The notes below the pieces were generated by a model that worked only from the letters and a program-made list of their open reading frames with translations, was not told the DNA's origin and searched no databases. From a virus (Duplodnaviria; Heunggongvirae; Uroviricota; Caudoviricetes), in IMG/VR virus record IMGVR_UViG_2695420855_000011, positions 1 through 8,050 of that record: a stretch of 8,050 nucleotides of DNA; one strand, given 5' to 3'. How positions within the stretch are numbered: the first letter of the stretch is position 1; each line of letters starts with the position of its first letter. This document shows, in pieces, positions 568 to 4,252 of the stretch. The position numbers and the translations under genes were made by a program.

Positions 568-1117
568 GGCACACCTCCTGACGAATACGGGCGGCGAATA
601 CAGCAACACAACCGGACGGGCAACGGCTACGTGCTTCGCGTTCCGTCCAGGCGGTTACGTGGATGATTTGATGTTCTGACGCGCCAAAGATGATAAAGCG
701 CCAGAGAAAGGCGGTTTGAGAATGTACAAGGGTAGGGATAGTAGCCATGTTGGCAGCCTCCTCAGTGTGGTTAAGATAACCGCCACCGGAAACGCCAATT
801 TCGCTGGTGGCGGACTGTACAGGGTTGGCGTAACCGGACACTGAAGAAACCGGCGCGGATTGCTCCGCCCCCGTACAGCCCACCATTGATAAGGTGTGAC
901 TATGCGGCACAAAAAAACACGCGGGGCGCGTGTTATGCGCTTCAGTTTTGCCCAGGACGCCAATCCCGGCACCCGTTTTATGAGGTGCGCGGGAATCATA
1001 GCTATTTTCGACACTGGCGATCAACTGGTTTTTTTCTCCGATATTCAGGGCCAGAAAACGCCACACAAAGGCCGTTTGTGTGTGTACAAGGTGTGGTATA
1101 TGATTTACGGCAACCAT
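557..1117 (-). CDS. Tandem (two-domain) Icd-like small protein, 186 aa as one frame; the second domain (557..748) has its own ATG and strong SD
   Basis: ATG at 1117 is preceded by AGGAG with a 5-nt spacer. Two paralogous segments share the pattern hydrophobic-H-x-Q-T-A-F-x-W-R-F (MVAVNHIPHLVHTQTAFVWRF... and MATIPTLVHSQTAFLWRF...). This resembles proteins annotated as host cell division inhibitor Icd-like in enterobacterial prophages, recalled from memory and not verified. There is no stop between the two copies. Confidence 0.45.
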   Translation of the reverse strand: MVAVNHIPHLVHTQTAFVWRFLALNIGEKNQLIASVENSYDSRAPHKTGAGIGVLGKTEAHNTRPACFFVPHSHTLSMVGCTGAEQSAPVSSVSGYANPVQSATSEIGVSGGGYLNHTEEAANMATIPTLVHSQTAFLWRFIIFGASEHQIIHVTAWTEREARSRCPSGCVAVFAARIRQEVCHVQ

Positions 1118-1800: not shown

Positions 1801-2007
1801 TTAAGCAGCCGTTCCGCGTGCTTCCTCTTCGCGTTCTTTCTGCCAGGACAACACATCATCCTCATACCATCCGCGACGGCGTAAACCAACGCGAAAACCC
1901 TGCGGAAATTCTCCGGCGTTGATCATGCTTTGCAGCGTGCTGTCTGCCTTGATGTGGATAATTTTTTTTACTTCCTGGCGAAAGATAATTTTTCTGATTG
2001 CTTCCAT
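1801..2007 (-). CDS. alpA: AlpA-family phage transcriptional regulator / excisionase-like protein, 68 aa
   Basis: Sequence ...IIFRQEVKKIIHIKADSTLQSMINAGEFPQGFRVGLRRRGWYEDDVLSWQ... fits the AlpA/Vis signature (S-T-L/I ... AGEFP ... G ... GW ... W). Located downstream of the integrase, as in CP4-57-like islands. Confidence 0.8.
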   Translation of the reverse strand: MEAIRKIIFRQEVKKIIHIKADSTLQSMINAGEFPQGFRVGLRRRGWYEDDVLSWQKEREEEARGTAA

Positions 2008-2025: not shown

Positions 2026-2042
2026 TCCGGTGTATTCCGGTG
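2026..2042. promoter_or_regulatory. Two TCCGGTG repeats phased 10 bp apart in the alpA upstream region
   Basis: TCCGGTG at 2026-2032 and 2036-2042, about 20-35 bp upstream of the alpA start on the minus strand. The same heptamer recurs upstream of int. Confidence 0.35.
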
Positions 2043-2503: not shown

Positions 2504-3745
2504 CTACACGGCTCGGATACCCCTTTTACCACTGGCGAGGGTTACGCCCGTCGCCGCAGCCTCGACAAATTCGCCCCACCAGCGCATCAGCACGATGCGT
2601 TTTTCTATGTAGTTGCTCCGGTTGTATGCCCGTCTAACTTCGTTGGTGTCGACGTGGGCAAGTGCCGCCTCTATTACGTCCGGCTCGAATCCTTCCTCGT
2701 TCGCTGCTGTGCTGAATATGGCGCGTAATCCATGAGACACCAGCACGCCAGCGAATCCCATACGCCGCAATGCTGCGTTAGCTGTCTGGCTGTTCATCGG
2801 CTGCTGTGGGTCTTTCAGACTTGGGAAAACGTAATTGCGGTGGTGGCTGATTGGTTTCATGGCCTCCAGCACCGCCATAGCCTGACCGGAAAGCGGGATA
2901 ACGTGATCCCTGCGCATCTTCATGCGTCCGGCAGGTATCGTCCATTGCTTCGCGTCCAGGTTGATTTCATCCCACCGCGTTGATGACGCTTCGGCGGGAC
3001 GGGTTACGGTCAGTAACTGCCATTCAATCAGTAATCTGGTCTGCCGTTCTGTTGCCGATACTGATAAAGCCTGCATAAGCTCGGGCAGCTGTTCGGGGCG
3101 GATTGTTGGCATATGTTTTTTTACAGGTGAGGGAAACGCCTTACGCACATTCATAGCCGGATTGGCATCAATCAGCCCACTGTTGGCGGCGTAATCCATT
3201 ACCTCATTAACGCGCTGTAAAACCCGCTTGAGTGTTTCCAGGTTGCCGCGCTCCTTGATGGGGGTAAGCACTTCAACGAACCTTCGGGCGGTGAGGGTAT
3301 CTATTGGCGTGTTGCCGATGAACGGGAATACATATTTATCCAGCGAACGCCAGATGTCTTTAATCGTGTTGGGGGCCAGATTCTGGCTGATTTTCACCTG
3401 GTACCATGCCGCCGCCACATTTTCGAACGTGTTCCCTTGTCTTCGGGCCTCTGTCTCTCTTTTTTGCCTCTCGTGGTCCTGCGGGTCAGTTCCGGCACTG
3501 ATTAACGTCCTGTACTCGCTACGGCGTTTTCTGGCATCAGCCAGGGAAACATCTTCAAGCGATCCAAAACTCAGCAATATTCTTTTTTTGTCCGATGGTC
3601 GGTAGTAGGAAAATCTCCAGAGTTTTGATCCAGACGGTTTGACCAGGAGAAAAAGCCCTCCGCCGTCCTGCAGGGTGTACTCCTTTTGCGCTGGTCTGGC
3701 TGCTTTGATCTGCACTGTGGTTAATGGGTGTGTTTTTCTCGCCAT
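2504..3745 (-). CDS. int: P4-like tyrosine integrase (site-specific recombinase), 413 aa
   Basis: N-terminus MARKTHPLTTVQIKAARPAQKEYTLQDGGGLFLLVKPSGSKLWRFSYY... is typical of P4 / CP4-57 IntA-type arm-binding domains. The C-terminal part has H-x-x-R (SHGLRAIF) and the tyrosine motif (RRAYNRSNY). The ORF track starts at an upstream GTG (3763); the ATG at 3745 matching the family N-terminus is preferred. Confidence 0.9.
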   Translation of the reverse strand: MARKTHPLTTVQIKAARPAQKEYTLQDGGGLFLLVKPSGSKLWRFSYYRPSDKKRILLSFGSLEDVSLADARKRRSEYRTLISAGTDPQDHERQKRETEARRQGNTFENVAAAWYQVKISQNLAPNTIKDIWRSLDKYVFPFIGNTPIDTLTARRFVEVLTPIKERGNLETLKRVLQRVNEVMDYAANSGLIDANPAMNVRKAFPSPVKKHMPTIRPEQLPELMQALSVSATERQTRLLIEWQLLTVTRPAEASSTRWDEINLDAKQWTIPAGRMKMRRDHVIPLSGQAMAVLEAMKPISHHRNYVFPSLKDPQQPMNSQTANAALRRMGFAGVLVSHGLRAIFSTAANEEGFEPDVIEAALAHVDTNEVRRAYNRSNYIEKRIVLMRWWGEFVEAAATGVTLASGKRGIRAV

Positions 3746-3778
3746 ATGTCTATGATTCCACACGAAAAAACAGGGTTT

Positions 3779-3830
3779 TAGTTATACGGCTTTAGTTATA
3801 CGCCAGCCCGTATAACTAAACGTATAACTA
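3779..3830. repeat. Four copies of a 10-bp motif (TAGTTATACG twice direct, CGTATAACTA twice inverted) in the int leader
   Basis: Copies at 3779-3788, 3793-3802, 3809-3818 and 3821-3830, symmetric about position 3805. Located between the candidate int promoter and the int ATG. Confidence 0.45.
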
Positions 3831-3835
3831 AAAAA

Positions 3836-3876
3836 TCCGGCTGATAGCTTATAAATCCGGTGATGTTCGGTGACTA
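3836..3876 (-). promoter_or_regulatory. Candidate int promoter overlapped by phased (T)CCGGTG repeats
   Basis: On the minus strand, a -35-like TAGTCA (plus 3871-3876), a 17-bp spacer and a -10-like TATAAG (plus 3848-3853). TCCGGCT / TCCGGTG / TTCGGTG sit at 3836, 3856 and 3866, spaced 20 and 10 bp. Confidence 0.35.
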
Positions 3877-3884
3877 AAAAACAT

Positions 3885-3917
3885 AAAAAAACCCGCCAAT
3901 CAAGTGATTAGCGGGTT
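3885..3917 (-). terminator. Rho-independent terminator insulating int from upstream minus-strand transcription
   Basis: Stem AACCCGC / GCGGGTT (7 bp) with a 14-nt loop, flanked on the plus strand by AAAAAAA at 3885-3891 (a U-tract on the minus strand). Confidence 0.5.
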
Positions 3918-3929
3918 ATCCCTGTCTTA

Positions 3930-3956
3930 TCCGGTGCTTTCCGGTGATATCCGGTG
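3930..3956. repeat. Three TCCGGTG heptamers at exact 10-bp phasing
   Basis: TCCGGTG at 3930-3936, 3940-3946 and 3950-3956. Confidence 0.5.
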
Positions 3957-4039
3957 GGCGATTTGGTCGGCACGAGAGTATTTTAATTTGGCGTGTAACT
4001 GAGTGATTTTAATAAATATTCTTGATTCAACTTTTAAGC

Positions 4040-4061
4040 CGTATAACCAAACGTATAACTA
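4040..4061. repeat. Two further copies of the CGTATAAC(C/T)A motif
   Basis: CGTATAACCA at 4040-4049 and CGTATAACTA at 4052-4061, in the same orientation as the inverted copies at 3809-3830. Confidence 0.4.
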
Positions 4062-4207
4062 AAAATATTTGCTGTAAAAATGAACAATTCAAACGGTTGT
4101 TGCCCTGGGGGCTTCAATAATTCCACCGGAATTTTTTTCCGGTTAACCTTTAATCATGTTGGTGGGTCATTAAATGCCCCCTTACTCTGGTTTAAATGCC
4201 GTTTTTT

Positions 4208-4252
4208 GTCACGCCGTGTCACTGGTTGTCACTCTCCGTCACGGTATGTCAC
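4208..4252. repeat. Five GTCAC sites at exact 10-bp phasing; candidate integrase arm-type binding array
   Basis: GTCAC at 4208, 4218, 4228, 4238 and 4248 (ttGTCACgcc, gtGTCACtgg, ttGTCACtct, ccGTCACggt, atGTCACtac). The core resembles the GTCACT core of lambda Int arm-type sites. Confidence 0.5.

What the first reader, a model, noticed from the sequence alone, without database searches (positions are those of the whole stretch)
3779..4061. Palindromically arranged 10-bp motif CGTATAACTA in the int leader, with two more copies 210 bp away
Two direct and two inverted copies (3779-3830) form a symmetric cluster between the predicted int promoter and the int ATG, and two further copies lie at 4040-4061. 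This is a third, distinct repeat family in the 704-bp non-coding region, which suggests multiple DNA-binding factors or site classes (core-type versus arm-type) and possibly looping between the two clusters.
Basis: seen in the sequence. Interest (0 to 1): 0.4.

Follow-up and report, generated by a model that had tools for sequence, protein, structure and literature searches.

The report
Integrase arm-binding sites of a satellite
The repeated 12-base motif is almost certainly the set of "arm" docking sites that a P4-type integrase uses, on both sides of a tRNA-Pro-derived crossover site, to insert and remove a small phage-satellite island; it is a clear but ordinary example of a well-known design.

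Summary
Six copies of CGTATAACTA (full unit CGTATAACTAAA) lie at the stated coordinates, against 0.32 expected by chance, and nowhere else in the window.

The 704-bp gap is a complete attP-type junction between two tandem satellite islands. A 17-nt block identical to the 3' end of tRNA-Pro(GGG) (3962-3978) lies between the clusters. Four copies sit on the int side, overlapping the probable int promoter and leader. Two tandem copies sit 61 nt beyond the core.

Phage P4's annotated attP has the same layout. The Int here has the P4/HPI-type arm-binding N-domain (PF13356; PDB 3JU0, 3JTZ).

In about 25 relatives the layout is kept, but all copies in both arms change together. The motif class follows the Int N-terminal domain. 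It does not follow the rest of Int, AlpA, the replication genes, the host genus or the core. The distal spacer is exactly 61 nt in eight elements (seven at attR, plus the window) of four motif classes, although the spacer sequences are unrelated.

Verdict: arm-type Int-binding sites that probably also autoregulate int. This is a new member of a known kind, of low to moderate interest. Binding itself was not tested.

The parts
3821..3832 (+). Proximal arm-type site 1, CGTATAACTAAA on the + strand (TTTAGTTATACG in the int sense). It is the first copy met when reading from the core toward int. Its int-sense 3' end together with the start of site 2 forms the putative -10 of Pint.
   Evidence: The position is conserved in relatives.
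3809..3820 (+). Proximal arm-type site 2. It is tandem with site 1 at a 12-bp period.
   Evidence: The 12-bp period of this pair is the same in every locus tabulated with a direct pair (21 loci including P4; one further locus has only one direct and one inverted copy).
3791..3802 (-). Proximal arm-type site 3, CGTATAACTAAA on the - strand. It is inverted relative to sites 1 and 2.
   Evidence: (I9-I11).
3777..3788 (-). Proximal arm-type site 4, inverted, 31 nt upstream of the int ATG.
   Evidence: (I5-I7).
4040..4051 (+). Distal arm-type site, CGTATAACCAAA (1 mismatch). It is the copy nearer the core, exactly 61 nt from it.
   Evidence: (D1).
4052..4063 (+). Distal arm-type site, CGTATAACTAAA. 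It is tandem with the previous copy at a 12-bp period.
3962..3978 (-). Core identity block, CTCTCGTGCCGACCAAA on the - strand. It is identical to the 3' end of tRNA-Pro(GGG) plus 2 nt of the empty E. coli attB. The crossover must lie within it.
3979..4039 (.). 61-nt A+T-rich spacer between the core and the distal pair. Its length does not vary across relatives, while its sequence is free to vary.
   Evidence: One weak IHF-like match at 3996-4008, not significant.
3890..3917 (-). Intrinsic terminator hairpin followed by a T-run. It lies downstream of the tRNA-derived core and upstream of the int control region. It replaces the tRNA's own terminator after integration and insulates int from read-through (inference).
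   Evidence: Conserved in all tRNA-Pro relatives.
3819..3847 (-). Putative int promoter (inferred). The -35 is CTATCA at 3847-3842 (TTTACA in relatives), followed by a 17-nt spacer and a -10 of TACGTT at 3824-3819, which straddles sites 1 and 2.
   Evidence: Read from the alignment. It was not detected by the consensus scan.
2504..3745 (-). int, a P4-family tyrosine integrase of 413 aa.
   Evidence: PF13356 Arm-DNA-bind_3 (4.6e-23), PF22022, PF00589.
3461..3724 (-). Coding region of the Int N-terminal arm-binding domain (aa 8-95), the presumed reader of the motif.
   Evidence: PDB 3JU0 (E 2.8e-19) and 3JTZ (7.4e-12). Co-variation with the motif class.
7598..8050 (-). Truncated second int copy (150 aa, 141/142 identical to int), fused to a RepA-helicase C-terminal fragment. 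It marks the upstream, internally deleted island, whose far end supplies the distal arm.

Best explanation
The six CGTATAACTAAA units are most likely the arm-type binding sites of the P4-family tyrosine integrase encoded next to them (2504-3745, - strand).

The 704-bp gap is a complete attP-type site (arm, core, arm). It arose because two related phage-satellite islands sit in tandem at tRNA-Pro(GGG).

The Int C-terminal domains would act on the 17-nt tRNA-derived core (3962-3978). The Int N-terminal domain (PF13356) would bind two tandem sites 61 nt to one side of the core and four sites (two direct, two inverted) 129 nt to the other side. DNA bending then folds both arms onto the core to build the recombination complex.

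The four-site cluster lies between a tRNA-side terminator and the int ATG, and it overlaps the probable int promoter and leader. Occupancy by Int should therefore also repress int, as shown experimentally for P4 Int and KplE1 IntS.

Shown here: the anatomy, the homology of layout with P4, the co-variation and the fixed geometry. Inferred: binding by Int, the promoter position and autoregulation.
For: (1) The motif is real and confined to the att region. It has six copies against 0.32 expected.

(2) The core lies between the clusters. E. coli O26:H11 carries one such island at tRNA-Pro. Cluster 1 is at its attL next to int, and cluster 2 is at its attR about 8.5 kb away. The empty attB and the window share CTCTCGTGCCGACCAAA.

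(3) Phage P4's GenBank record annotates 12-nt 'attP arm sequence repeats' in the same layout. A tandem pair with a 12-bp period plus an inverted copy lies at the int start. The core is 112 nt from that pair, and a second tandem pair lies 53 nt beyond the core.

(4) Int carries Arm-DNA-bind_3. Its N-terminal domain matches the solved arm-binding domains 3JU0 and 3JTZ.

(5) In about 25 relatives the layout is kept, but all copies change in concert. The unit is TTAGTTATAC, TTAGCTAYAC, TTAGGACTAG, TTAGGCATA, TTGGGACTA, TTAGTGGTAC or TTAGGTATAC.

(6) The motif class follows the Int N-domain. In Erwinia L006 the rest of Int is 91-92% identical to class-A integrases. Its N-domain is only 52-56% identical to them, against 62-63% to class B, and it has class-B sites.

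(7) The class does not follow AlpA. The AlpA proteins of L077 (class A) and L085 (class D) are 96% identical. It does not follow the core either: class A occurs at tRNA-Pro, at tmRNA and at a third site. It does not follow the host genus: Pectobacterium has classes C and D with near-identical flanks. It does not follow the replication genes.

(8) The distal arm co-varies with the proximal arm in four classes.

(9) The geometry is fixed. The spacer from the distal pair to the core is exactly 61 nt in eight elements of four motif classes (seven at attR, plus the window); the spacer sequence is unrelated between classes. The distance from the core to the proximal pair is 118/119 or 129/130 nt, which differ by about one helical turn.

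(10) KplE1 IntS arm sites share TAAA, overlap the intS -10 and mediate repression by IntS. P4 Int behaves similarly (PMC2951348).
Against: No binding data exist for this element.

The proximal cluster is physically contiguous with the 5' end of int. In the circular form both arms lie within about 600 bp of it. Co-variation of sites with the N-domain could therefore partly reflect linkage (one recombination event swapping a cassette) rather than co-adaptation. Linkage does not, however, explain why all 4-6 copies within one element are alike.

The sigma-70 consensus scan found no promoter in the region, and the window's -35 (CTATCA) is poor, so the autoregulation step is weakly grounded.

IHF-consensus matches are not enriched.

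In two more distant phages (phi467, Kp4865-2) the tandem pair beyond the core has a different sequence from the int-proximal repeats. The 'same motif on both arms' rule is therefore not universal in the family.
Confidence: 0.85

Rival explanations
1. The motif is the operator or binding site of the island's AlpA-type excisionase/activator, or of another small island-encoded regulator. It would control int and excision directionality rather than docking Int.
For: AlpA-like genes lie downstream of int in the window (1801-2007) and in all relatives. Directionality factors bind repeated sites in att arms, as TorI does in KplE1 (PMC2951348).
Against: AlpA similarity does not track the motif class. 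AlpA is 96% identical between a class-A and a class-D island. The class-B L006 AlpA is 88-89% identical to those two but only 64% identical to the other class-B AlpAs. ORF83 (2175-2426) has no homologue in relatives that keep the motif. No copy of the motif lies near alpA. A different repeat, CACCGGA, occurs both in the arm and directly upstream of alpA, and it is the better candidate for AlpA.
Confidence: 0.05
2. The palindromic four-copy cluster acts mainly as nucleic-acid structure: a long hairpin in the int 5' leader RNA, or a DNA cruciform. It would control int expression by attenuation, mRNA stability or translation, and the sequence identity of the arms would be incidental.
For: If transcribed, the cluster folds at -31.7 kcal/mol against -15.8 for shuffles (z = -5.5). 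The inverted arrangement is kept in nearly all relatives. For P4, a post-transcriptional effect on int mRNA has been suggested (cited in PMC2951348).
Against: The distal pair is direct only and cannot form a hairpin, yet it carries the same motif and co-varies with the cluster. P4 and L089 have just one inverted copy, at a variable distance. The inferred transcription start lies inside the cluster, so the full hairpin would not be transcribed. Complementarity follows automatically from inverted copies of any binding site, so its conservation does not discriminate between the readings. This role could coexist with Int binding.
Confidence: 0.05
3. The repeats are iterons of the island's replication origin, or binding sites for a host nucleoid protein such as IHF or Fis.
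For: Short phased direct repeats in a non-coding region next to replication and packaging genes resemble iterons. The region is A+T-rich.
Against: The motif class differs between islands with the same type of primase (L227 against L228). It is the same between islands with different replication proteins: the RepA-type helicase in the window against the DUF927 primase in class-A relatives. The class also differs within one host genus while the flanks stay near-identical, which rules out a host factor. The position is tied to the core and to the int start, not to the rep gene.
Confidence: 0.02

Closest known systems
Arm repeats of satellite phage P4 attP. The features are annotated in NC_001609. 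I recall from memory that they were originally described by Pierson and Kahn (1987); that paper was not read here.
   Same: The integrase family and orientation are the same. The unit length is 12 nt. A tandem pair with a 12-bp period, plus inverted copy or copies, lies just upstream of or over the int start. The core is a tRNA 3' end. A second tandem pair in the same orientation lies beyond the core.
   Different: The motif sequence differs: ATTGGGGGCATA in P4 against TTTAGTTATACG here. The target tRNA is leuX in P4 against tRNA-Pro GGG here. The spacers are 53 and 112 nt in P4 against 61 and 129 nt here. P4 has one inverted copy that overlaps the ATG, whereas this element has two that lie 31 nt upstream. 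Int identity is low. The host element is not P4-like in its replication or packaging genes.
KplE1 (CPS-53) prophage IntS/TorI module at argW (PMC2951348)
   Same: It is a P4-type integrase whose arm-type P' sites share TAAA. The sites lie in attL between the tRNA 3' end and int, overlap the int promoter (-10), and mediate negative autoregulation. Separate sites bind the excisionase.
   Different: The motif and the number of sites differ. IntS binding and regulation were shown experimentally, whereas here they are only inferred.
Arm-binding domains of the HPI and HAI7 island integrases (PDB 3JTZ, 3JU0). The associated paper (Szwagierczak et al. 2009) is listed as a reference in PMC8138268 but could not be read.
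   Same: The N-terminal domain of the window's Int aligns with both over residues 8-93, with E-values of 2.8e-19 and 7.4e-12.
   Different: Those islands use other tRNA targets and other arm motifs. No structure with DNA was examined here.
Phage lambda attP (P1, P2 and P'1-3 arm sites, IHF, Xis, Fis)
   Same: The logic is the same. A heterobivalent Int bridges arm sites on both sides of a core, and accessory sites lie between the arms and the core.
   Different: The lambda Int N-domain belongs to a different Pfam family. The site arrangement, spacing and regulation of int all differ.

Membership tests
Arm-type sites of a P4-family (Arm-DNA-bind_3) tyrosine-integrase att site | The adjacent integrase has the N-terminal arm-binding domain together with the core-binding and catalytic domains. 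| tested here: met
   (PF13356 4.6e-23, PF22022, PF00589). (3JU0, 3JTZ).
Arm-type sites of a P4-family (Arm-DNA-bind_3) tyrosine-integrase att site | The same short motif is repeated on both sides of a core that is identical to the chromosomal target (a tRNA 3' end), and the motif differs from the core sequence. | tested here: met
   The core at 3962-3978 equals the 3' end of tRNA-Pro(GGG). Four copies lie on the int side and two on the far side.
Arm-type sites of a P4-family (Arm-DNA-bind_3) tyrosine-integrase att site | On integration the two clusters separate, one to attL and one to attR of the element. | tested here: met
   Seen in E. coli O26:H11 11368, Citrobacter L226, E. coli L232 and Pectobacterium L233.
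Arm-type sites of a P4-family (Arm-DNA-bind_3) tyrosine-integrase att site | The layout is homologous to the experimentally defined P4 attP. | tested here: met
   The 12-nt unit, the 12-bp tandem period, the orientation and the order of elements all match.
Arm-type sites of a P4-family (Arm-DNA-bind_3) tyrosine-integrase att site | The sites co-vary with the integrase N-domain and with nothing else. | tested here: met
   Caveat: the sites are physically linked to the 5' end of int.
Arm-type sites of a P4-family (Arm-DNA-bind_3) tyrosine-integrase att site | The Int N-domain binds the motif specifically, and recombination requires the sites. | not testable with these tools
   This needs gel-shift or footprinting assays and integration assays with mutated arms.
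Int-autoregulated int promoter (P4 / KplE1 type) | The int promoter overlaps the arm sites, and Int represses it. | tested here: inconclusive
   A conserved TTTACA, 17-nt spacer and TAnnnT arrangement overlaps site 1 in relatives. The window's -35 is degenerate and the consensus scan found nothing. No expression data are available.

The most novel reading that the evidence does not exclude
Among satellites that share one chromosomal target (tRNA-Pro GGG) and one rigid att geometry (61 nt on one side, 118 or 129 nt on the other), the arm-recognition module has diversified, or been swapped as a cassette, into at least six specificity classes. The module is the Int N-domain plus all 4-8 arm sites on both arms. 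This may make co-resident or tandem islands recombinationally orthogonal, so that one island's Int cannot excise or scramble its neighbour. It would also provide a natural read-out of the DNA-recognition code of the Arm-DNA-bind_3 domain, for example WRFSYY with TTATAC, VKTWQLRYY with GGACTAG, and LWRFRYY with GGCATA.
Probability: 0.35. Interest if true: 0.5.

Novelty: new member of a known kind. Interest (0 to 1): 0.25.

Why it matters
It assigns a function to a conspicuous repeat and shows that the 704-bp 'non-coding' gap is a full attP-type recombination site between two tandem satellite islands. This matters for annotating island boundaries at the tRNA-Pro hotspot.

The comparative set also gives a compact natural experiment on arm-site specificity in P4-type integrases. 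The core and the geometry stay the same while the arm motifs change, and each motif is tied to the N-domain. That could guide the design of orthogonal integrase/att pairs.

The mechanism itself is textbook.

Tried and rejected
1. A blastn 'distant' search of the gap against phage genomes found no match.

2. The sigma-70 consensus scan found no promoter. Only the terminator at 3917-3890 is relevant.

3. A scan of viral contigs with GGGACTAN5GGGACTA, meant to find class-D distal arms, returned 120 unrelated loci and was uninformative.

4. Most IMG/VR contigs start at int or stop before attR. Distal arms of L082, L083, L085 and L087 could not be found.

5. Class-D arms were sought in E. coli genomes and are absent there.

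6. The IHF consensus is not enriched (4 matches against 8.6 expected).

7. Rfam has no family in the gap.

8. The literature was searched for the motif string and no relevant paper was found.

9. The paper on the HPI and HAI7 arm-domain structures (PMC2797237) is not held.

10. Phages phi467 and Kp4865-2 were examined as extra attP examples. Their far-side tandem pairs differ in sequence from the int-side repeats, so they do not add support.

11. The AlpA, replication-iteron, host-factor and RNA-hairpin readings were considered and ranked low, for the reasons given under the rival explanations.

Full report
OBSERVATION

The motif is present as described. CGTATAACTA with up to 1 mismatch matches six times. 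The sites are 3779 and 3793 on the - strand, and 3809, 3821, 4040 (CGTATAACCA) and 4052 on the + strand. Chance expectation is 0.32, and 0 of 200 shuffles reach six. There are no further copies in the window. The repeat finder extends the unit to 12 nt, CGTATAACTAAA. The pairs at 3809-3832 and 4040-4063 are head-to-tail with a 12-bp period.

CONTEXT

All genes in the window read on the - strand. In reading order they are:
- a truncated integrase N-terminus (8050-7598), fused to the C-terminal part of a RepA-type helicase;
- a small terminase subunit (6162-5536);
- a capsid-like protein (5376-4450);
- the 704-bp gap;
- a full integrase (3745-2504) with Arm-DNA-bind_3, Phage_int_M and Phage_integrase domains;
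- a small ORF;
- an AlpA-like gene (2007-1801);
- an Ash-domain region.

The truncated int is 141/142 identical to the full one.

E. coli O26:H11 11368 carries a single island of this type between tRNA-Pro and yejO. There, cluster 1 lies at attL, between the tRNA-Pro 3' end and int. Cluster 2 lies at attR beyond the capsid gene, about 8.5 kb away. The window is therefore a tandem of two related islands. The first island is internally deleted, and the gap is a contiguous arm-core-arm (attP-type) junction. No complete E. coli genome in the collection contains this contiguous junction. About 4,800 of 5,426 genomes have the empty site.

CORE

The empty attB reads ...TCAAATC-CTCTCGTGCCGACCAAA-AATCCC. 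The window reads, in the int sense...AAAATA-CTCTCGTGCCGACCAAA-TCGCCC. The shared 17-nt block is at window 3962-3978. It consists of the 3' acceptor strand, the discriminator base and the CCA of tRNA-Pro(GGG), plus two more bases.

Reading from the core toward int, the features are:
- three CACCGGA boxes;
- an intrinsic terminator (3917-3890);
- more CACCGGA-like boxes;
- the four-copy cluster, two direct and two inverted copies;
- 31 nt of spacer;
- the int ATG.

On the other side of the core there is a 61-nt A+T-rich spacer and then the tandem pair.

COMPARISON WITH P4

The P4 GenBank record annotates 12-nt 'attP arm sequence repeats'. Two tandem copies lie at 3942-3965. An inverted copy at 3915-3926 overlaps the int ATG. 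The core is at 4078-4097. Two more tandem copies lie at 4151-4174. Read in the int sense, the order, orientation, unit length and 12-bp period are the same as here. Only the motif (ATTGGGGGCATA) and the spacers (53 and 112 nt) differ.

The Int N-terminal residues 8-93 align with the solved arm-binding domains of the HAI7 and HPI island integrases, 3JU0 (E 2.8e-19) and 3JTZ (7.4e-12).

RELATIVES

Loci encoding integrases 26-100% identical to this Int were collected from three sources; those used for the motif comparison are 46-100% identical: species-representative genomes, IMG/VR, and contigs carrying homologues found by protein search. Most of the relatives sit at tRNA-Pro(GGG).

In every locus with upstream sequence the same plan recurs: the tRNA 3' end, a terminator, a conserved TTTACAGCCGGA-like box, a direct pair with a 12-bp period, one to four inverted copies, and the int ATG.

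The unit sequence differs between lineages, and all copies within one island change together:

| Unit | Where found |
|---|---|
| TTAGTTATAC | window, Phytobacter, Pantoea, Edwardsiella, Brenneria populi and others |
| TTAGCTAYAC | an E. coli group |
| TTAGGACTAG | Erwinia psidii, Rosenbergiella, Citrobacter |
| TTAGGCATA | Brenneria, Pectobacterium odoriferum and P. polaris |
| TTGGGACTA | Pectobacterium araliae |
| TTAGTGGTAC | L089 |
| TTAGGTATAC | Salmonella |

The near-constant part is TTTAG/CTAAA. This recalls the TAAA shared by KplE1 IntS arm sites (PMC2951348).

WHAT THE CLASS FOLLOWS

The class follows the Int N-domain. Erwinia L006 is a natural chimera. Residues from about 97 onward are 91-92% identical to class-A integrases. 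Residues 1-96 are only 52-56% identical to class A, against 62-63% to class B, and the sites are class B.

The class does not follow several other features:
- AlpA. It is 96% identical between a class-A island (L077) and a class-D island (L085). It is 88-89% identical between L006 (class B) and those two, but only 64% between L006 and the other class-B islands.
- The core. Class-A arms occur with tRNA-Pro, with a tmRNA 3' end (L078, L080) and with a third target (L005, L074).
- The host. Pectobacterium carries classes C and D with near-identical flanks.
- The replication genes.

ORF83 of the window is absent from relatives that keep the motif.

DISTAL ARM AND GEOMETRY

attR could be read for seven islands in four classes: O26, L025, L038, L226, L232 and L233 show the pair, the spacer and the core, and L023 shows the pair only because its contig ends inside the spacer. 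Each has a tandem pair of its own class:

| Class | Island(s) | Distal pair |
|---|---|---|
| A | O26, L023, L025, L038 | TTTAGTTATACG with TTTAGTTATACG (O26) or TTTGGTTATACG (L023, L025, L038) |
| A' | L232 | TTTAGCTACACG TTAAGCTATACG |
| B | L226 | TTTGGGACTAGA TTTGGGACTAAA |
| C | L233 | TTTAGGCATAGC TATAGGCATAGC |

Copy-specific micro-variants are mirrored between the arms (L232, L233). The spacer from the pair to the core is exactly 61 nt in every case in which the core is present, including the window. The spacer sequences are unrelated between classes. The distance from the core to the first proximal copy is 118/119 or 129/130 nt, about one helical turn apart. Fixed length with free sequence is what a protein-DNA architecture requires. 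A sequence-specific element in the spacer would not need it.

MECHANISM

The best reading is a heterobivalent integrase. Its catalytic and core-binding domains act at 3962-3978. Its N-domains dock on the six 12-mers. Bending of the A+T-rich spacers brings the arms to the core. No IHF site could be established.

In relatives, a TTTACA hexamer lies 17 nt upstream of a TAnnnT hexamer. That second hexamer is formed by the end of direct copy 1 and the start of copy 2. In the window the equivalent hexamers are CTATCA (3847-3842) and TACGTT (3824-3819). If this is Pint, Int bound to the cluster occludes the promoter and the short leader. That would give the negative autoregulation demonstrated for KplE1 IntS and reported for P4 Int (PMC2951348). 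This step is inference, and the consensus scan found no promoter.

RIVALS

- AlpA or another regulator: disfavoured and by the separate CACCGGA repeat family.
- RNA hairpin or cruciform: the fold is strong, but this follows necessarily from inverted sites, and it cannot explain the direct-only distal pair.
- Iterons or host-factor sites: disfavoured.
- A caveat applies to the main reading. Both arms and the N-domain coding sequence lie within about 600 bp in the circular form, so linkage contributes to the co-variation.

NOVELTY

The design is the known one for P4-family integrases, so this is a new member of a known kind. I found no paper that mentions this motif. The broader pattern may be worth a short follow-up: one core, one geometry and several arm-specificity classes, each tied to the N-domain.

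Noticed in passing
window 3856-3862, 3930-3936, 3940-3946, 3950-3956 (- strand), 2026-2032 and 2036-2042 (- strand), 4124-4130 (+ strand); also 545, 784, 5789: CACCGGA occurs 10 times in the window against 0.87 expected (0 of 200 shuffles reach this). Four copies lie between the core and arm cluster 1. Two lie directly upstream of the alpA-like gene. This placement suits binding sites for the AlpA-type excisionase/activator. It is a different site class from the arm motif.
   Followed up: partly
window 4208-4252 (+ strand): Five GTCAC units lie at an exact 10-bp period (4 overlapping pattern matches against 0.25 expected). They sit in a roughly 300-bp module between the distal arm and the capsid gene. 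The single island of E. coli O26:H11 has different sequence at this position. The module is therefore a variable cargo or regulatory segment and not part of the att site. Its function is unknown.
   Followed up: partly
window 7598-8050 and 7089-7628 (- strand): A second int copy stops at 150 aa (141/142 identical to the full int) and overlaps the C-terminal fragment of a RepA-family helicase. The upstream island of the tandem has lost everything between int codon ~142 and the end of repA, including alpA.
   Followed up: partly
attR of related islands: L001 ~11700-11720, L226 ~18281, L038 ~10720, L025 ~11140, L232 ~20667; intact in L233 ~19136: In five of six resident islands the attR copy of the 17-nt core block carries a small deletion on its chromosomal side. 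GACCA is missing in O26 and in Citrobacter. Seven nt are missing in L038, about 11 nt in L025 and 1 nt in L232. The flanks are intact, and the window's internal junction has the full block. This may be decay or selection that immobilises the islands, but it remains unexplained.
   Followed up: partly
window 803-890 and 912-988 (- strand), inside ORF 557-1786: Rfam finds a C4 antisense RNA (77.6 bits) and an isrK Hfq-binding RNA (66 bits) inside the 409-aa 'Ash' ORF. The translation of that ORF is low in complexity. The long ORF is probably not a real gene as a whole. The region looks like a P4/P1-type RNA immunity locus followed by a shorter Ash-domain gene.
   Followed up: no
L003, L011, L077, L078, L080, first codons of int (positions +5/+6 relative to the ATG): In relatives whose Int begins MARIT(T), codons 3-6 (CGT ATA ACT AC) form a further copy of the arm motif inside the coding sequence. 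P4's inverted arm repeat overlaps its int ATG in a similar way. The window's Int begins MARKTH and lacks this extra copy.
   Followed up: no
L024 and L026 ~9720-9790; L077, L084, L085 upstream of int: In several IMG/VR loci the island's int-side arm is preceded by only the 3' half of tRNA-Pro, from the anticodon loop onward. That half is joined to DNA of a different element with palindromic operator-like repeats. The tRNA-Pro site therefore hosts mixed tandem arrays of elements that use cores of different lengths.
   Followed up: no
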